Part shown: one piece after another, positions 8,167-37,299 of the stretch | How the letters are laid out: each line of letters begins with the position of its first letter | Numbering within the stretch: the first letter of the stretch is position 1 | Virus record (IMG/VR): IMGVR_UViG_3300037127_000005 | Location: 1 to 40,929 of that record | Reading direction: 5' to 3' (one strand) | DNA: 40,929 nt | Origin: a virus | Lineage: Duplodnaviria > Caudoviricetes | Made by a program: the position numbers and the translations under genes | Notes under the pieces: generated by a model | What the model was told of the DNA's origin: nothing | The model's input: only the letters and a program-made list of their open reading frames with translations | Databases searched by the model: none

Positions 8167-9543
8167 ATGCATTACCTACAGAAACTAAACCCGATGGTTG
8201 CTAATTCAATTGCTACCAACTCTAAATATAGAGGGCGGCAACCGTACAGCTCAATATTGCCAAGTGCCCCAGTAAACTTTGGTGATACCAACCGTAATGA
8301 CTCTGCGGCGTATGGCTATCCCGATGTTATTGACTTCCATGTGCTTTATAACGCCTATCGCCGCGGTGGTTTCTTTAACGCGCTGGTTGACATTATCCCA
8401 GAGCGTTGCTTTAGCGATGACCCGTACATTGTTGATGGAGACGAAGATACACCACAAGACACGCAATTTGAACGCGAAGTAAAAGAGCTGGTTGAGAAGT
8501 TTCAACTTTGGCGCGTGTTTGAGGATGCGTTTAAAAAAGCGGACGTCGGGCAGTACGCAACGATTGTCCCGGTAATATCAGAGCCAACACAAAACAGCTT
8601 AGACAGGCCTTTAAAGCGTGGCAAGCGCATCATTGCTATAAATCCTTGGTATCAACCAGAGTGCGAAGCCAACACCACGTACGACTCTGATTACTTTAGC
8701 GAGAACTACAATAAGCCGCTGAGTTACCGCTTGCAGCCGTCAGAACTTAGCGCAAGACAGACAACCAACGGCGAGACGCACACGCTGCACTATAGTCGAG
8801 TCCATGTAATCACTAACGCCGTTGGTGCCACAATCTATGGCGAGTCAGTTTTGGAGCCAGCTTTTAACGCTCTGTTTGACGCTAACAAAGTGCGCGGTGC
8901 ATCCGGTGAAGGTTATCGCAAGAACGCAATGCAGAAGTATGTTCTAAGCGCTAACAACACAGAAGCAGCAAAAGCCATGCAATCCAGAGGTGAGTCTATT
9001 GACCAGTCTATAGATGACTTTAATGATAATTTCAATAACGCACTCAAGCTCTACGGCGTTGACGTAACAAGCCTGCAAACACAACTGCAAGACCCTAAAA
9101 GTGCATGGGAAATATGCGTAGTCGAAGCATGTGCAAGCCGTGGTGTGTCATTTACTGAGTTAGTTGGCTTTATGACTGGTGAGCGAGCCAGTACGCAAAA
9201 CAGCACCTCATTCACCAAGCGGCTCAAAAAACACCAGAAGAAGTACGGCAACGACATTCACAAGTTTTTGTCACGTCTTGTCGAGCTTGGTTTGTTGTCG
9301 CAACCCAGCAATGGTACGTTTAAAGTGTGCTGGCCAGACCTGAGCGAGCCTAGCACAGCTGAAAAGCTAGAAAGCGCTGGCAAGATGACGTCACAAAACG
9401 AGCAAGCATTCAAAGCTGGCCAAGAAGCACCGTGGACCATGGAAGAAATCAGACAAGCGGGCGGTGCGGAAGCCAAAAAACCTGATACCGAATACGACCC
9501 CAAAGAAGATATGGTGTTAGATGAAGAAAATACGCCAGATTAA
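8167..9543 (+). CDS. Portal protein (DUF1073/HI1409-like)
   Basis: 458 aa with YGYP..., AYRRGG..ALVD, HYSRV, YGESVLEPAFN, L-G--TGERAST and WPDL motifs. Directly precedes the gpF-like gene. Confidence 0.85.
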   Translation: MHYLQKLNPMVANSIATNSKYRGRQPYSSILPSAPVNFGDTNRNDSAAYGYPDVIDFHVLYNAYRRGGFFNALVDIIPERCFSDDPYIVDGDEDTPQDTQFEREVKELVEKFQLWRVFEDAFKKADVGQYATIVPVISEPTQNSLDRPLKRGKRIIAINPWYQPECEANTTYDSDYFSENYNKPLSYRLQPSELSARQTTNGETHTLHYSRVHVITNAVGATIYGESVLEPAFNALFDANKVRGASGEGYRKNAMQKYVLSANNTEAAKAMQSRGESIDQSIDDFNDNFNNALKLYGVDVTSLQTQLQDPKSAWEICVVEACASRGVSFTELVGFMTGERASTQNSTSFTKRLKKHQKKYGNDIHKFLSRLVELGLLSQPSNGTFKVCWPDLSEPSTAEKLESAGKMTSQNEQAFKAGQEAPWTMEEIRQAGGAEAKKPDTEYDPKEDMVLDEENTPD

Positions 9544-10561
9544 AAGCTATCCGGTTATACCAAGAAGCGCCGAAGACCCAGCCAACCAAAAAGGCAATCT
9601 AAAGCGTGCACAGGTAGAACTTAAAAAACGCTTTGAGCGAATCAATAAGGCGATGAAGCAACTTGTTAAAGACCAGGAGCAATACCAGCGTGTTGCATCG
9701 GCTAACAAGATGGCGTTTTGGTGGCCACTGGATAGTAATGGCGAGCGCATCAACGAAGTAGTAGTAAACAAAGCCTACTACAGCTATGATATTTCCACAG
9801 AGCGCTACGACTCGATTAACTCATTTATCGAGCACTTGCTTTACAATGAGTTGTTAGAGTCATTAACTGGCCAGCGCCCTAATAACTGGTTTTATCAATC
9901 GTACCTATCAAGCGCTTATAACGATGCTATACGCGACACTATACAGTCATCTAAAAACATGGCAGAGCCTAGCGTTGTCGGCGATGAAATAGCTATGATG
10001 ATTAGGCAGCTTGACGCAGACGCATTTAACCCACAACAAGTTAACGCTTTGAGTTTAGTGTACTCGCGTGTATTTAATGAAATGAAAGGCCTAACTGACT
10101 CGATGAAAGTGGACTTATCAGAAACGTTAACGCGCGGCATGGCCAGCGGTTTAGGTATTCGTGAAATCACGCAAGACGTTGCAAAGCGTGTCGGCGTTGG
10201 CTTTAGTCGCGCACAACGCATATCGAGAACTGAGATACTTGGCGCATACCGCACAGCACAGCGTGACAAAACGCGCCAGATTAATGAAGATATTTATTCT
10301 GATTCTCCTTTTGTGCAAAAGCAACTCTGGTTTAGTGCATTGGCGATGACAAGCCGCCCGCATCACGTGGCAAAACATGGCCAGATTTATTCTATGCAGG
10401 AAGTTGAGGAGTTTTATTCAGAAAACGGCAATAGTATAAACTGCTTATGTAGTCAATCTCCAATATTAGTTAATCGCAAGACTGGCGAAGCTGTAATGAA
10501 GGACTTGATAAAAAAAATGCGCCAACAAAAAGATGCTTGGCGCGCGGGTGTTGGTAGGTAG
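9521..10561 (+). CDS. Head morphogenesis protein (SPP1 gp7/Mu gpF-like)
   Basis: RAQRISRTE, WFSAL...SRPHHVAKHG and NCLCS motifs. Confidence 0.88.
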   Translation: MKKIRQIKSYPVIPRSAEDPANQKGNLKRAQVELKKRFERINKAMKQLVKDQEQYQRVASANKMAFWWPLDSNGERINEVVVNKAYYSYDISTERYDSINSFIEHLLYNELLESLTGQRPNNWFYQSYLSSAYNDAIRDTIQSSKNMAEPSVVGDEIAMMIRQLDADAFNPQQVNALSLVYSRVFNEMKGLTDSMKVDLSETLTRGMASGLGIREITQDVAKRVGVGFSRAQRISRTEILGAYRTAQRDKTRQINEDIYSDSPFVQKQLWFSALAMTSRPHHVAKHGQIYSMQEVEEFYSENGNSINCLCSQSPILVNRKTGEAVMKDLIKKMRQQKDAWRAGVGR

Positions 10562-11126: not shown

Positions 11127-11281
11127 TTGATGCAAATGAGTTAGACAAGCAAGCCAAGCGGCATAAACTAATCAAGCAAGCCGCTGAGCGCATTAAACAG
11201 AAAAAAGCTGCCGAGCGTGTTGATCGCCGCAGAGATTTAGAAGACAAGCTTTATCTTAAACAGATGGGAGTTGAGTTATGA
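11123..11281 (+). CDS. Small basic helical protein, 52 aa
   Basis: MIDANELDKQAKRHKLIKQ...MGVEL; GAGG RBS; ATGA overlaps at both ends. Confidence 0.65.
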   Translation: MIDANELDKQAKRHKLIKQAAERIKQKKAAERVDRRRDLEDKLYLKQMGVEL

Positions 11282-11691
11282 GTAAGTTAGTAGAGCAACT
11301 AATAAAGCACGAAGGCTTAAAGCTCATGCCGTACACTTGCACAGCTGGAAAGTTGACTATTGGTGTTGGTCGCAATATTGAAGATAACGGAATAACTGAA
11401 GATGAAGCAATGTACTTGCTGCACGCTGATATAGCACGCACGATTGATGAGTTGGTTAAATTTGATTGGTATTGCTCACTAGATGAAGTTAGGCGCGGCG
11501 CTATCGTAAACATGTGTTTTAACCTTGGCTTGCCAACACTTCTCAAATTTACCAACATGATTAACGCTATCAAACTTAAAGACTACGGTTTGGCAGCCAA
11601 AGAAATGCTGGATAGCCGATGGGCTAGACAGGTTGGCGATAGAGCTGTTGAGCTGTCAAATCAAATGCGAACTGGAAGTTATAAATTATGA
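11278..11691 (+). CDS. Endolysin, T4-like (GH24) lysozyme
   Basis: HEGLKLMPYTCTAGKLTIGVGRN carries the E-X8-C-X5-T triad. Also NMCFNLG and SRWARQVGDRA motifs. Confidence 0.92.
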   Translation: MSKLVEQLIKHEGLKLMPYTCTAGKLTIGVGRNIEDNGITEDEAMYLLHADIARTIDELVKFDWYCSLDEVRRGAIVNMCFNLGLPTLLKFTNMINAIKLKDYGLAAKEMLDSRWARQVGDRAVELSNQMRTGSYKL

Positions 11692-11873
11692 CAGCCCACA
11701 TAGACAAGCAAACCCAAGAAACTGAGCGCTGTGATTGCGATCCGCATGATGTACACGCATTGCAGAAGAAAGTTAACATAGAAGCACGCAAGAAGCGCAC
11801 GGCGTATTTTTTACTAGCAGTAAGCGTGTGGTTTAATGTTATTGCGTTTATTAGCGATTTGATGAGTAGGTGA
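11688..11873 (+). CDS. Small membrane protein in the lysis cassette
   Basis: Single C-terminal TM segment; ATGA-coupled to the endolysin gene. Confidence 0.6.
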   Translation: MTAHIDKQTQETERCDCDPHDVHALQKKVNIEARKKRTAYFLLAVSVWFNVIAFISDLMSR

Positions 11874-11877
11874 TTTT

Positions 11878-12333
11878 ATGAGTTTACTAGCAAGTGTTGG
11901 CGGGTGGGTTGCTTCGGTTTTCGGAGGCGAAGCTGGGGCAAATACCGCACTAAAAATAGTTGAGAAAATAAGTGGTACGGATTGGACTCCGCAGCAAAAA
12001 GCGGATTTCATGATTAACTATCAAAACGCAACTAAGCACCAAAGTCCGGCCAGGCGATTTATCGCGTTTGCATTCACCATCGGCATGGCATTGTTTGGCT
12101 TTGTTTATTTAATGTCGGGCGTGGTAGCGCAAGCCTATGTATTTATAGCAACATCAGGAGATACATTGGCGCTAGTATCAGCAAGTCAGAATCTAGCTGA
12201 AATACGCATTAAGCCATTGCTCACACTGCAAAATGACTCATACGTATACATGAAAGAAGTTCTATCAAATCCAATGACTTGGATATTAGGGTTTTACTTT
12301 GCTGTAGATATTGGCAGTAAGATTAAGAAATAG
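11878..12333 (+). CDS. Putative holin (3TM/GTA-holin-like)
   Basis: SPARRFIA followed by TM segments and an ILGFYF C-terminal motif; adjacent to the endolysin gene. Confidence 0.65.
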   Translation: MSLLASVGGWVASVFGGEAGANTALKIVEKISGTDWTPQQKADFMINYQNATKHQSPARRFIAFAFTIGMALFGFVYLMSGVVAQAYVFIATSGDTLALVSASQNLAEIRIKPLLTLQNDSYVYMKEVLSNPMTWILGFYFAVDIGSKIKK

Positions 12334-20875: not shown

Positions 20876-20938
20876 TCCAATAGACCTAAAAATAAACTAA
20901 ACTAGGTGCATTATAACACAGCAATAAAAGGTTTCATT

Positions 20939-21535
20939 GTGCTAACAAGATACGGATTTGGCGCGATTTACATTGGCGATAATAAATACGAGGTTAGGCC
21001 AACGTTTCAGAACATTGGCAAGCTTGGAACCCCTAAAGAAGTTATCGAAACGTTTAAGGCGTTTTTCAATTGCCCGTCAATTAATTGGCAATATCATCGT
21101 GCCGTTGAAATACTGCAAGCGTGTTGTGAGCCCAATTTGCCTGACAAAGTGACAGGGCGATTCCGTGTCGATGAGCGTGGCAAAATGAAAATAGTAAACC
21201 CGCCGGCGCAAGAATTTATGCACGACATTATTGTACTGGCAAGTCATTGTTTGCGGTATGGTGTGGTAGGCGTAACCGATGAAGATTTAAAAAGCGAAGG
21301 TGAGCCAATACAAGAGTTTGACGTTTACCAGTTTATTGGCTTGGCAACTGAGCACCTTGGCCGTAGTCGTGAGCAAGCCGCAGACATGACACTAACAGAG
21401 TTTATGATGGCGTGGGATATTAAGTTTCCAGAGCAGAAAAAAGAACGTGAAGAGTACGCGCGCAAAGTGAAATCACTAAACGCGCTATTGATGTACCAAA
21501 AAGAGCTAGACGAAAAATCTAAGGCTAAGGCGTGA
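20939..21535 (+). CDS. Putative tail assembly chaperone, on the opposite strand to the tail operon
   Basis: RPTFQNIGKLGTPKEVI, EFDVYQFI..A..HLG and A.DMTLTEF motifs. GTG start at 20939 after AAGGT. Lies between the tail tube and TMP genes. Confidence 0.7.
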   Translation: MLTRYGFGAIYIGDNKYEVRPTFQNIGKLGTPKEVIETFKAFFNCPSINWQYHRAVEILQACCEPNLPDKVTGRFRVDERGKMKIVNPPAQEFMHDIIVLASHCLRYGVVGVTDEDLKSEGEPIQEFDVYQFIGLATEHLGRSREQAADMTLTEFMMAWDIKFPEQKKEREEYARKVKSLNALLMYQKELDEKSKAKA

Positions 21536-23882: not shown

Positions 23883-24262
23883 AGCGGATTATCAGCCTCG
23901 AAAGTTTTACCAGCGGTACCAAAGCTAAACTGCGTTTTATCAGTTGGTAAGCATCCAGCGGTGTCCTGTTTATAAGCCCAGGCTAGCAAAGCGTTATCGT
24001 ATTGCTCCATATCGCCATACTTACCCTGTTTAAATGACGTACTAGCGCCACTGGCTGCTCTTTCCTGGGTAACTTGCATATCACCATTAGATGACTGCAA
24101 AGAGCCAGCAATGTAAGAGTTAGCAATGTCGTCAGCAACGTCTGCGCTGTATGATTGAGTTAAACAGGCGTATGTTTCGGCAAACGCTGCAATGCGCCCA
24201 TTAATCATTCCATCGGGACCAGTTCCGCCATACTCTTTTACTGTATCAATTGTGAATGCCAT
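23879..24262 (-). CDS. Head-tail connector (adaptor) protein
   Basis: TQERAASGASTSF and DTAGCLP motifs typical of this adaptor family; position. Confidence 0.7.
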   Translation of the reverse strand: MAFTIDTVKEYGGTGPDGMINGRIAAFAETYACLTQSYSADVADDIANSYIAGSLQSSNGDMQVTQERAASGASTSFKQGKYGDMEQYDNALLAWAYKQDTAGCLPTDKTQFSFGTAGKTFEADNPL

Positions 24263-24603
24263 TACTTACCCGCCTGTGTCAAAGCGCTGAAATCGAAGGT
24301 GCTGGCAATGATGAGTATAACCAGAGCTGTGATAACAAAGGGGAACCCAATCCGCATAATGTAATTTCTGAACATGCTAAGTATCCACTCTGTTGTTTTT
24401 ATAGCATCCTCATACTTGTCAACAAACTTCTCTAATGACTCTAAGCGTTCATCTTTTCGTTCGTCTCGAATGGTTCGTTCTCGCTCTGCTATTACAAGAT
24501 CGTTAATTGAGTCAGCAAGCTTACTTATTGATTCCGCTTGCTGCGCCATGTACTTTTCAATTGTTGCTAAATGCTCATGCGTTACGATATTTTCATCACT
24601 CAT
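24262..24603 (-). CDS. Coiled-coil protein with C-terminal TM helix (holin/antiholin-like)
   Basis: ISKLADSINDLVIAE...RLESLE coiled coil followed by IGFPFVITALVILIIA. Confidence 0.6.
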   Translation of the reverse strand: MSDENIVTHEHLATIEKYMAQQAESISKLADSINDLVIAERERTIRDERKDERLESLEKFVDKYEDAIKTTEWILSMFRNYIMRIGFPFVITALVILIIASTFDFSALTQAGK

Positions 24604-24605
24604 GA

Positions 24606-25166
24606 TTACTTACCTTGGTTAACCTTTTTGTCAGTATACCAAAAATATGAGTAATGAACATTAAGCCGAATGACGCTGAACAAGTCGCTAAACTTATCCA
24701 CCAAGCCTGCAAAAATGAATCGATCCCGATATAGCGAAAGAATGATACAAAAGTGAAGACAAACAATGATATTAGCGTAATTCCGCCAAACAAACGTTTC
24801 AGCATAAGCATTAGTGTACGAGTCCCAGCACATGAGCAGAATGAATGCGATCATTGTAGCACAAGCTGTTAATGTATTGTTATTGTCGGTGCGTAGAATG
24901 TGGAAGCCAGCAACGGATAGCCACGCGATAAGATAGAATGAAAAAAGGGAAGCGCCATATATAGGAGGTGGTAAATCACCCGGTAATATATCAACCAGGG
25001 CTACAACCTCGCAAAGTAAAAAAGCCATACCAAAAAGGTATGACTTTCTAATTGTCAGCAAGTAGGATAAAAATACAAGGTTACTTAGTTTTTGGTTTGT
25101 CGTCAGCTGGTTTTGCTGGACGGCTTGGCTTAGTAGTTCCAGCCATATCAGTAACTCCTCTAACAT
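24606..25166 (-). CDS. Polytopic membrane protein (about 5 TM)
   Basis: Multiple hydrophobic segments. Start uncertain because the RBS is weak. Confidence 0.7.
   Translation of the reverse strand: MLEELLIWLELLSQAVQQNQLTTNQKLSNLVFLSYLLTIRKSYLFGMAFLLCEVVALVDILPGDLPPPIYGASLFSFYLIAWLSVAGFHILRTDNNNTLTACATMIAFILLMCWDSYTNAYAETFVWRNYANIIVCLHFCIILSLYRDRFIFAGLVDKFSDLFSVIRLNVHYSYFWYTDKKVNQGK
25081..25146 (-). CDS. 21-aa Lys/Pro-rich micropeptide nested in the membrane gene
   Basis: GAGGAG-8 nt-ATG; reads MAGTTKPSRPAKPADDKPKTK-stop. Confidence 0.55.
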   Translation of the reverse strand: MAGTTKPSRPAKPADDKPKTK

Positions 25167-25177
25167 ATTAATCGAGC

Positions 25178-25384
25178 CTATAGTGTAGCAGGTTCATGCA
25201 ACAAAGTCAGATTCAATATGACAACTTCATTAGCGTTGTTACTCTTTGTTATTTCATCGATAAGTAATTCGTAATCAGATTTCGTCATTATCTTACCGTC
25301 CAACTCTGCCGACCCGCTAAAATACCTAGTTCCTAGGCTGAGACTCTCCATTGCTGAATAATGATACAGATATTTATCACTCAT
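25178..25384 (-). CDS. Hypothetical protein
   Basis: 68-aa ORF, ATGA-coupled to the upstream gene. Confidence 0.7.
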   Translation of the reverse strand: MSDKYLYHYSAMESLSLGTRYFSGSAELDGKIMTKSDYELLIDEITKSNNANEVVILNLTLLHEPATL

Positions 25385-25932: not shown

Positions 25933-26127
25933 ATGATGCTTAAATTTATAGAAAGCCCACAAGTGCAAATATTTTGCAGTTTATTGGTTATGGTATTTGC
26001 TGCGTTTGAGCTATACCTTGGAAGCTCTGATTTTATTTTAATGATGATTTTGATTGCATATTGCATTACAGACATTAATAAGGAGCTTGTAATCATTTCA
26101 AAAGCCCGTGGAGAAAACCATGAATAA
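25933..26127 (+). CDS. Small 2-TM membrane protein
   Basis: GGAG RBS; two hydrophobic segments. Confidence 0.65.
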   Translation: MMLKFIESPQVQIFCSLLVMVFAAFELYLGSSDFILMMILIAYCITDINKELVIISKARGENHE

Positions 26128-26431
26128 GCAACCAAGACAAGTAATACCAGTAGCGCCGCGCACGTATGCAAAACTGGTAAAGGAATACACCGAAAGCGAT
26201 TACGCAAAGCTTGAGCATAAACGCAACGAGGAAAGGCGTAAACTGCAATGCCAAATCAAAGAGTTGAATTTAAAGCTTGATAGTAAAAGTCATTTGCTTG
26301 AGCTTAGCAAGCGTATGGGCGAGGCATTGGAAGAAAAGGCTAAACGCAATAAGAAAGTATCTTCAGCCACCCTTGCTTTTAGCGTGTGCATCGCTTTTGG
26401 CGTTGGCTTATTAGTCGGGTTGGGGTTTTGA
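26120..26431 (+). CDS. Coiled-coil protein with C-terminal TM anchor
   Basis: GGAG RBS before ATG 26120 (MNKQPRQ); C-terminal ATLAFSVCIAFGVGLLVGLGF. Confidence 0.75.
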   Translation: MNKQPRQVIPVAPRTYAKLVKEYTESDYAKLEHKRNEERRKLQCQIKELNLKLDSKSHLLELSKRMGEALEEKAKRNKKVSSATLAFSVCIAFGVGLLVGLGF

Positions 26432-36340: not shown

Positions 36341-37093
36341 TCATATCTCGCAAATCCTACAACCTTGATTATCGTCATCCCATGCCTGGCCTATTTTTGC
36401 CGTAAACACACTTTTTCCAATTTTATCCTCAACGACTCTGACATTGATAAGCTGCTGCCTGCCAAAGTCATCAAACTCAAAAGCTTTTATTTTTGATTTA
36501 TCACCCCCAGCCAAGCATGGGAAGCAGCCAACTCTTTTAAATCCGTGTGAGTAAAGAGGGTTTATTTCATCACCTAGATAATCAATAACCTCACTTTCGT
36601 ACCAGTCTACTATTGGCAATCTGTATCTAACCCCGAGATTCCCCAAGTATTTTGGGTAATTCGAGATTACTTCATGTGGCAAATGCAGGTCATCCGGGTC
36701 TTTGTACTCGTAACGCTTTGCTCTTTCCGCGCTTTCATCGATTCTCATTCCATACCAAACCTGTACAGCGCCAAACTCTTCCGCGTATTTTTTTAGGAAT
36801 TTTTTTGTTGGTATTATTTTTAGTTCATTTGTGCAGTGCCTTGCTCCGCCTCCAGGGAATCTACCCCTTTGCTCGCATTTGGACAAAACATCTCCAGCTG
36901 TGATTGTTACAATTTCAACACCGTAAAGGTCTTTTATTTTCTCCACGTGCTTATATGTAAGTGGGTGCTCAAACTTGGTATCACAAAATAGACCAAGTAC
37001 ATTCCTGGCCCCAAATTCCTCAACAGCCATCTTCATGCAGGCTTGTGAATCTTTACCCCCACTTACAGGTACTATACATTCAAATTTTCTCAT
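36341..37093 (-). CDS. PAPS reductase-family (PP-loop, Fe-S) protein
   Basis: VSGGKDS PP-loop, FCDTKFEHP, RHCTNELK, GMRIDESAERA, NPLY..GFKRVGCFPC; GGGAG RBS before ATG 37093. Confidence 0.88.
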   Translation of the reverse strand: MRKFECIVPVSGGKDSQACMKMAVEEFGARNVLGLFCDTKFEHPLTYKHVEKIKDLYGVEIVTITAGDVLSKCEQRGRFPGGGARHCTNELKIIPTKKFLKKYAEEFGAVQVWYGMRIDESAERAKRYEYKDPDDLHLPHEVISNYPKYLGNLGVRYRLPIVDWYESEVIDYLGDEINPLYSHGFKRVGCFPCLAGGDKSKIKAFEFDDFGRQQLINVRVVEDKIGKSVFTAKIGQAWDDDNQGCRICEI

Positions 37094-37107
37094 TTCTATC
37101 TCCCAAA

Positions 37108-37299
37108 CTACAAACTCTGCGCTCCAAGAAGCCCCAAAAGAAACAATACAACATACACCAGAAGCCACCAGCGCGATTCTGAGCGCTTTAAATCAGAATA
37201 GTACGGACTAATGCGTAAAGCTCTTATTTTCGCTGCTGTGTCGTTCTCTGCCTTAAATTTAACGATTTTACCGCGCACTTTGATTGTGTAGTTATTCAT
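37108..37299 (-). CDS. Small protein with C-terminal TM helix
   Basis: WWLLVYVVLFLLGLLG segment; GGAG RBS. Confidence 0.65.
   Translation of the reverse strand: MNNYTIKVRGKIVKFKAENDTAAKIRALRISPYYSDLKRSESRWWLLVYVVLFLLGLLGAQSL

What the first reader, a model, noticed from the sequence alone, without database searches (positions are those of the whole stretch)
24262..25166. Nested micropeptide, polytopic membrane protein and coiled-coil TM protein: a candidate peptide-controlled membrane module
Seen: the strongest RBS here (GAGGAG, 8-nt spacer) opens a 21-codon ORF, MAGTTKPSRPAKPADDKPKTK (25146-25081), wholly inside the first ~28 codons of the ~5-TM gene, whose own RBS is weak. A holin/antiholin-like gene follows immediately, and the trio sits inside the neck operon. 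Inference: an undescribed three-part system, such as peptide-regulated lysis timing, superinfection sensing or exclusion, or a peptide/receptor pair. The overlap would give much peptide and little membrane protein, or a +1 shift could fuse the two.
Basis: partly seen in the sequence, partly recalled or inferred. Interest (0 to 1): 0.7.

Follow-up and report, generated by a model that had tools for sequence, protein, structure and literature searches.

The report
Phage four-gene peptide–membrane cassette
A marine bacterial virus packs two unannotated genes, a 21-residue basic peptide and a 71-residue membrane protein, inside one membrane-protein gene, together with predicted promoters and a predicted transcription stop signal; relatives keep this arrangement, and it likely tunes when infected cells burst, possibly in response to the peptide.

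Summary
The micro-ORF is real and conserved: it is present in 38 of 38 distinct loci with an intact 5' end (Pseudoalteromonas, Shewanella and Alteromonas phages, plus viral and metagenome contigs).

- An extended -10 promoter motif precedes the peptide (34/38).
- A covarying terminator hairpin lies inside the membrane gene M after the peptide stop (34/38). Together these predict a ~170-nt peptide mRNA and little M.
- A second unannotated ORF H (24811-24596, 71 aa, two hydrophobic helices) is nested in the +1 frame of M's 3' end. Selection switches to that frame over M codons 147-172.
- Further promoter motifs precede H and the coiled-coil gene C.

Nesting is not invariant: 6 of 38 loci lack it. 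No frameshift signal was found. C matches no holin family, and the phage's holin-like gene lies 12 kb away. Two isolated phages lost the peptide and 5' M but keep H and C.

Best reading (about 0.3): H and C are accessory lysis proteins, and the peptide is a ligand for M's predicted acidic periplasmic face. The anatomy is well supported; function is inferred and untested.

The parts
25182..25190 (-). P1: extended -10 promoter motif (TGnTAnnnT), 44 nt before the peptide ATG; predicted start leaves about 9 nt before M's ATG
   Evidence: 34 of 38 loci versus 4% background; same motif class precedes portal, protease, major tail, tape measure, tailspike and terminase genes
24606..25166 (-). M: 186-aa polytopic membrane protein (phrog_20960, unknown function). 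Five hydrophobic segments, predicted N-out/C-in; core at residues ~29-146; near-invariant Y35, D115, Y130, H138
25155..25160 (-). Shine-Dalgarno GAGGAG of the peptide ORF, formed by codons 2-4 of M
   Evidence: E at M position 4 in 58 and W at position 8 in 64 of 94 distant proteins
25081..25146 (-). P: 21-aa K/P/T-rich peptide ORF, +2 frame of M, no signal peptide, no hydrophobic core
   Evidence: 38 of 38 loci; codon-position variation favours this frame; exact sequence absent from the 15-billion-protein collection
25013..25048 (-). T1: intrinsic-terminator-like hairpin (12 bp, -15.1 kcal/mol) with U-tract, inside M codons 40-51
   Evidence: 97.2% of cells paired, 6 of 12 pairs with two-sided changes in 21 sequences; 34 of 38 loci; third codon positions frozen, 0.15 versus 0.50
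24853..24861 (-). P2: extended -10 motif inside M (codons 102-105), 50 nt before H
   Evidence: 23 of 38 loci versus 5% background; third positions 0.16 versus 0.50
24596..24811 (-). H: unannotated 71-aa ORF nested in the +1 frame of M's 3' end; helical hairpin with two hydrophobic segments and basic ends
   Evidence: +1 frame open 70-111 codons in 38 of 38 loci scored; P(open) median 0.009 under synonymous recoding; pN/pS 0.45 in +1 versus 1.04 in M over codons 147-172; model pLDDT 71.9
24633..24641 (-). P3: extended -10 motif inside M and H, 38 nt before C
   Evidence: 35 of 38 loci versus 10.5% background
24262..24603 (-). C: 113-aa N-terminal coiled coil with one C-terminal TM segment (phrog_18364, unknown function)
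   Evidence: the HS2 counterpart is transcribed late, found in infected cells and not in virions
11278..12333 (+). Context: lysozyme-type endolysin (11278-11691) and holin-like gene (11878-12333), 12 kb from the cassette
   Evidence: PF00959; the 151-aa protein matches the holin-like gene beside the cassette in L022 and L029 (E 2e-24 and 2e-25)

Best explanation
This is a conserved four-gene phage cassette (peptide P, membrane protein M, nested membrane protein H, coiled-coil membrane protein C) that likely acts as an accessory lysis-control unit, in which the peptide is predicted to be made in large excess and would act as a ligand for M. Shown by sequence and comparison: the four ORFs, their order, three promoter-like motifs, the hairpin inside M, and frame-specific selection. 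Inferred steps: (1) P1 makes a ~170-nt mRNA that stops at T1 and yields abundant peptide. (2) M is made only from rare transcripts that pass T1, probably when a ribosome in the M frame runs through the hairpin. (3) P2 and P3 express H and C independently and later; H and C are the retained core and would assist or time lysis alongside the separate holin and endolysin. (4) The peptide has no export signal, so it would reach the periplasm or medium only when membranes open, from the same cell or from lysing neighbours. It would then bind M's acidic outer loops and shift H/C activity.
For: Conservation in 38 of 38 loci down to about 20-25% identity in M. The peptide stays K/P/R-rich where it does not overlap M (L023, L056), so its composition is not an overlap by-product. 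Hairpin covariation, and no antiterminator pairing with the leader in the 14 valid folds. Topology across 108 proteins: inner loops carry 2.0 and 2.3 K/R, the tail 6.7 K/R; outer loops carry 1.8 and 2.7 D/E. The peptide and M 51-99 diverge together while M 107-172 stays near-identical (L010/L018 0.44/0.33/0.07; L011/L014 0.35/0.22/0.04), as expected for a specificity module. In PSA-HS2 infection the M locus is one of 2 'Middle' genes of 63, between an Early gene and Late C; C protein was detected in cells and M was not. Neither is in virions. PHS21 and SL25 lost P and 5' M, and TW1's M is frameshifted, but all three keep H and C. The cassette adjoins an M15 endolysin and a holin-like gene in 5 of 26 loci, with a receiver-domain gene in two Alteromonas phages. 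My lipobox scan found no spanin lipoprotein in the window or in H103.
Against: There is no expression data for P or H. In 21 of 26 loci, and in the window, no lysis gene is adjacent; the phage already has a holin-like gene. Net peptide charge is 0 or below in 7 of 35. The charge correlation with M's loops (rho -0.58) did not survive tree control (3 independent pairs, p 0.5-1). The selection signal for the peptide frame is borderline (pos2-pos1 = 0.118, 95% CI 0.002-0.242; pN/pS 0.65 versus 0.80 for M), and the 85 pairs are not independent. H's first hydrophobic segment is weak in several members. M has no evident cytoplasmic output domain. P2 is met in only 23 of 38 loci.
Confidence: 0.3

Rival explanations
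1. The peptide ORF is a cis-acting leader: its translation (start-site competition or reinitiation) sets how often a ribosome enters M and carries RNA polymerase through T1. The peptide itself is a by-product.
For: The order promoter - peptide - terminator inside M is invariant in both nested and TAATG-coupled layouts. The peptide sequence is hypervariable.
Against: No antiterminator. The hairpin starts 33 nt after the stop, beyond a terminating ribosome (inference). Composition and the terminal K-x-K are kept without overlap constraint.
Confidence: 0.22
2. P and M are an antidote-toxin or superinfection-exclusion pair: M alters the inner membrane and excess labile peptide restrains it, while H and C are separate late genes.
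For: The peptide-over-M ratio, Middle timing, dispensability in two isolates, and joint divergence of P with M's 5' half.
Against: No PADLOC hit. M's cytoplasmic face is basic, like the peptide. H is encoded within M and has its own promoter motif.
Confidence: 0.2
3. The peptide acts by itself as an abundant polycation, either a disruptin-like outer-membrane destabiliser or a DNA-condensing peptide; H and C provide the other lysis helper functions.
For: Net charge +4 to +8 in 28 of 35; no spanin lipoprotein found; precedent in phiKT gp28 (10.1101/515445, passages).
Against: It is 15-29 aa, proline-rich and has no hydrophobic face, unlike the 56-aa amphipathic helical gp28. It is neutral or acidic in 7 of 35, lost in two isolates, and always tied to M.
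Confidence: 0.13
4. H is a true class II holin or pinholin, M its antiholin or chaperone, and the cassette is the primary lysis timer.
For: 71 aa, helical hairpin, basic ends, two Met near the start in the window; own promoter motif; always retained.
Against: No holin family match: best E 0.043 in 1 of 21 members and 0.26. A separate holin-like gene sits beside the endolysin; HS2 has a 3-TM holin next to its lysozyme.
Confidence: 0.1
5. The micro-ORF is a chance by-product of M's sequence, or is joined to M by a +1 frameshift.
For: The +2 frame is open by chance with median P 0.45.
Against: RBS, start, stop, promoter motif and terminator are conserved in divergent and un-nested loci; no slippery site.
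Confidence: 0.05

Closest known systems
LambdaSo Lcc6 (10.1101/2024.01.23.576932, passages read) and Mu releasin gp25 (as described in that paper)
   Same: Small membrane proteins needed for lysis in addition to holin and endolysin; Lcc6 is encoded far from the lysis genes.
   Different: Single proteins (Lcc6: 65 aa, one N-terminal TM); no peptide, nested genes or internal terminator described; homology not tested.
Rz/Rz1 embedded spanins
   Same: A gene nested in the +1 frame of a membrane-protein gene.
   Different: H has no lipobox and M is polytopic rather than a single-TM periplasmic coil.
phiKT gp28 disruptin (10.1101/515445, passages read)
   Same: Small cationic peptide without export signal in a phage lacking spanins.
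   Different: gp28 is 56 aa, amphipathic, helical and lies between endolysin and holin; P is 15-29 aa, proline-rich and non-amphipathic.
Arbitrium AimP/AimR and AgrB/AgrD peptide signalling (recalled)
   Same: Short variable peptide gene tied to a partner gene; variable parts travel together.
   Different: Those are Gram-positive systems with secreted or processed peptides; P has no signal peptide, and M matches no AgrB or RRNPP model.
Leader-peptide attenuators (pyrBI, mgtL; recalled) and T4 rI/t lysis inhibition (recalled)
   Same: Short ORF followed by a terminator that limits a membrane gene; outside signal coupled to lysis timing.
   Different: No antiterminator was found, the terminator lies inside the downstream ORF, and there is no sequence match to rI or t.

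Membership tests
Two-component spanin (Rz/Rz1) | Nested gene encodes a lipoprotein with a lipobox Cys | tested here: not met
   No lipobox candidate in the window or H103 by my pattern scan; H sequences
Two-component spanin (Rz/Rz1) | Host gene has one N-terminal TM and a periplasmic coil | tested here: not met
   M has five hydrophobic segments; C has its TM at the C-terminus
Class II holin / pinholin (for H) | About 70 aa, two TM helices, basic termini | tested here: inconclusive
   Helical hairpin; second segment strong, first weak in several members
Class II holin / pinholin (for H) | Match to a holin family model | tested here: not met
Class II holin / pinholin (for H) | Lethal depolarisation; complements a holin mutant | not testable with these tools
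   needs an experiment
Holin/antiholin (for C) | Match to a holin, XhlA or DUF2730 model | tested here: not met
   only phrog_18364, unknown function
Disruptin | Under 80 aa, net charge +4 or more | tested here: met
   window peptide +4; 28 of 35 reach +4; cut-off from 10.1101/515445
Disruptin | Amphipathic helix | tested here: not met
   0 large hydrophobic residues in the window peptide; family 14% Pro
Leader-peptide attenuator | Short ORF followed by an intrinsic terminator | tested here: met
Leader-peptide attenuator | Alternative antiterminator structure | tested here: not met
   pairing of the 5' arm with the leader 0.00-0.01 in 14 of 16 folds; the other two used a misplaced window
Peptide signalling (arbitrium / Agr type) | Export signal on the peptide, or homology of the partner to AimR, AgrB or AgrC | tested here: not met
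   no hydrophobic segment in P; M has no significant Pfam or NCBIfam hit
Peptide signalling (arbitrium / Agr type) | Peptide and receptor co-vary | tested here: inconclusive
   joint divergence seen; charge covariation underpowered after tree control
Any solved membrane-protein fold (for M) | Clear structural match | tested here: inconclusive
   Foldseek PDB none at E<=0.001; VIA best Z 9.5 (rmsd 3.2, 123 aligned) to a designed helical bundle

The most novel reading that the evidence does not exclude
A lysis-released peptide signal in lytic phages of Gram-negative marine bacteria: each burst frees a phage-specific peptide, neighbouring cells infected by kin read it through M, and lysis timing shifts through H and C. 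This would be peptide communication without secretion machinery, with swappable peptide-receptor specificities.
Probability: 0.15. Interest if true: 0.92.

Novelty: categorically new. Interest (0 to 1): 0.72.

Why it matters
Two conserved genes are invisible to current annotation: none of the 7 nested-ORF sequences looked up is in the 15-billion-protein collection. Much of the apparent 'protein conservation' of phrog_20960 is really DNA and RNA signal (RBS, start, stop, terminator, promoters). The cassette gives concrete candidates for how these apparently spanin-less marine siphoviruses finish or time lysis. It can be tested at once in a cultured, non-pathogenic model with existing time-course data (PSA-HS2). 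Natural deletion variants (SL25, PHS21, TW1) already exist. If the peptide is a ligand, it would extend phage peptide signalling to Gram-negative hosts.

Tried and rejected
Frameshift fusion: rejected (un-nested loci). Antiterminator: none found.

Co-folding of the M core with H gave no verdict (score 0.06, mark 0.32). The 21-aa peptide is below that tool's 30-residue size and was not co-folded, so peptide binding is open.

Sequencing runs: no RNA holder was listed.

Family and structure searches: no significant Pfam, NCBIfam or PADLOC hit for M, P, H or C; no PDB sequence hit; no clear fold match. BFVD gave one hit at E 1e-4 and weaker 139-165-aa phage proteins, which I could not trace to DNA. 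The ESM Atlas gave only unnamed viral clusters for M and did not answer for H. Rfam gave one sub-threshold match, E 0.37.

Genomes: one close-family scan of GTDB genomes found no M; it reaches close relatives only.

Terminator scans: the stock scan listed the hairpin only on the + strand. My scan missed L006, L024, L028 and L055; L006 passed.

Rows left out: L007 and L008 (natural 5' deletions) and L049 (contig end) from the 38; L009 and L023-L027 also from the 31-locus codon analyses; L046 from the charge and tree tests.

Earlier scan findings: none. Ten literature searches (mostly listings) showed no description of this cassette; subscription journals are largely not covered.

Full report
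Setting. The window is a complete 40.9-kb virus record with terminal repeats. By its gene content it is a siphovirus. The 186-aa ORF M matches only Pseudoalteromonas phages among cultured phages, at 34-54% identity (H103, XCL1123, H40/1, BS5, HS2, C7, PHS21, SL25, TW1). Profile search found 111 clusters at 50% identity, mostly 170-200 aa. Further searches reached Shewanella phage 3/49 and Alteromonas phages PB15 and XX1924. All are unnamed or hypothetical proteins.

Observation. The micro-ORF, its RBS and its position are as described. I gathered 55 loci that reduce to 40 distinct M proteins, plus L056. Three lack the 5' region: L007 and L008 by natural deletion, L049 by contig end. The other 38 all carry a 15-29-codon hydrophilic ORF at this place. 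Across 35 peptides the composition is K 22%, P 14%, T 13%, S 12%; net charge is +4 to +8 in 28 and 0 or below in 7. The open frame by itself means little (median P 0.45). M's frame is also nearly bound to stay open across a peptide lacking Leu, Ile and Val codons (inference). The evidence is the recurring RBS, start and stop, and a reversal of codon-position variation. Over M codons 9-27 the second position varies more than the first (+0.118, CI 0.002-0.242), against -0.106 in mid-gene; pN/pS is 0.65 in the peptide frame and 0.80 in M. This signal is modest, and the 85 pairs among 31 loci are not independent. In 94 distant M proteins without DNA, the residues that encode these signals persist (E4 58, W8 64, S28 67), which suggests the ORF is family-wide.

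Transcription signals. An extended -10 motif precedes the peptide in 34 of 38 loci (background 4%). In the window, 11 of 27 such motifs lie 15-90 nt before a gene start, where 1.5 are expected; without the two motifs I proposed it is 9 of 25. They include the portal, protease, major tail, tape measure, tailspike and terminase starts. A hairpin with a U-tract lies inside M, 33-61 nt after the peptide stop in the window. It passes my scan in 34 of 38 loci. In the 21 sequences aligned it is 97.2% paired, 6 of 12 pairs show two-sided changes, and slid controls pair at 33-60% (related sequences inflate such counts). Synonymous sites there are frozen. No antiterminator was found. I infer a stand-alone mRNA of about 170 nt for the peptide, with M made only on read-through from a weak start (RBS rank 45 of 62).

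Nesting is optional. In 31 loci M has an in-frame ATG 17-29 nt upstream of the peptide ATG, and TW1 is nested with a frameshifted M. In six loci this is not so. M starts at or after the peptide stop in L023, L056, L024 and L026, and inside the peptide ORF in L025 and L027. The invariant is promoter, peptide, then a terminator within M. No slippery site marks the peptide stop, so the proposed fusion is unsupported.

A second hidden gene. The +1 frame at M's 3' end is open for 70-111 codons in 38 of 38 loci scored. Under synonymous recoding, an open last 64 codons has median P 0.009; under codon shuffling 0.024 (0.157 for the window itself). Over codons 147-172 selection changes frame: pN/pS is 0.45 in +1 and 1.04 in M, while mid-gene it is 0.92 and 0.41. 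The position contrast is +0.216 (CI 0.127-0.308) against -0.176. M's tail therefore looks like passive read-through. H is a helical hairpin with no family match. Promoter motifs sit before H (23 of 38; background 5%) and before C (35 of 38; background 10.5%).

M. The model (pLDDT 87.9) and charge distribution predict five segments, N-out and C-in, with basic inner loops and acidic outer loops. Y35, D115, Y130 and H138 are at least 90% conserved in 108 proteins and are not explained by the DNA signals. There is no clear structural relative.

Outside data. PSAHS2_00018 (546 nt) and 00017 (390 nt) are M and C of phage HS2; I identified them by length, spacing and neighbours, not by sequence. Neither was found in virions (PMC5498523; passages and part 1 of 5 of Data_Sheet_3). 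In infection, 00018 is one of 2 Middle genes of 63 and its protein was not detected. 00017 is Late and its protein was detected, while the flanking genes are Early (PMC7082346; passages and Table S2 in full). This fits separate promoters. It cannot separate P from M or H, and supplement 7 was unreadable. HS2's lysozyme and 3-TM holin lie elsewhere.

Function. The cassette moves as a block: before the neck genes, before the terminase, or beside an M15 endolysin and holin-like gene (5 of 26 loci), with a receiver-domain gene in PB15 and XX1924. PHS21, SL25 and TW1 show that P and/or intact M can be lost while H and C are kept. The peptide and M's 5' half diverge together, but charge covariation fails tree control. 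No spanin lipoprotein was found in two genomes. Precedent for a remote membrane lysis helper is Lcc6 (10.1101/2024.01.23.576932; passages), and for a cationic lysis peptide phiKT gp28 (10.1101/515445; passages). PMC8228385 (passages) was not relevant. Arbitrium, Agr, pyrBI, mgtL and T4 rI are recalled.

I commit to an accessory lysis cassette with H and C as core and P/M as an optional ligand-sensor input (0.3). The rivals are cis leader (0.22), antidote or exclusion pair (0.2), free polycation (0.13), H as primary holin (0.1), and artefact or fusion (0.05). My confidence in the anatomy is about 0.85 and in some lysis role about 0.5.

Verdict. A real, deeply conserved and partly unannotated cassette that fails membership of each known system tested. 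Ten library searches showed no description. Interest 0.72.

Noticed in passing
window 20906-21535 (+): The phrog_791 gene, in the tail-assembly-chaperone slot, lies on the opposite strand between the major tail and tape measure genes; in H103 the gene in that slot is co-oriented. No long flanking inverted repeat. The tape-measure promoter motif (20918) overlaps its 5' end.
   Followed up: partly
window 8167-10561 (+): Portal and head-morphogenesis genes sit on the opposite strand, far from the terminase, just upstream of the lysis genes; H103 shares this layout.
   Followed up: partly
window 8127, 14885, 20918, 22085, 27462, 30946, 35611: Structural gene blocks each begin with an extended -10 motif, a candidate late-promoter class for this phage group.
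   Followed up: partly
L023 3243-3620; L056 2044-2457: A stand-alone response-regulator receiver gene lies between C and the downstream lysis-region genes in two Alteromonas phages.
   Followed up: no
L056 ~1095-1140: A second short basic ORF (14 codons) with its own hairpin precedes the peptide gene in XX1924.
   Followed up: no
window 26108-26431 (+) and 11688-11873 (+): Two further small proteins with a charged or coiled N-terminus and a C-terminal hydrophobic segment; the second lies between the endolysin and the holin-like gene. No significant family hits.
   Followed up: no
L003 2423-2977: RefSeq labels the H40/1 M homologue 'minor head protein'; the membrane topology and the absence of HS2's M from virions argue this is a misannotation.
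   Followed up: partly
window 36341-37168 (-): PAPS-reductase-like gene (phrog_424) upstream of the terminase region.
   Followed up: no
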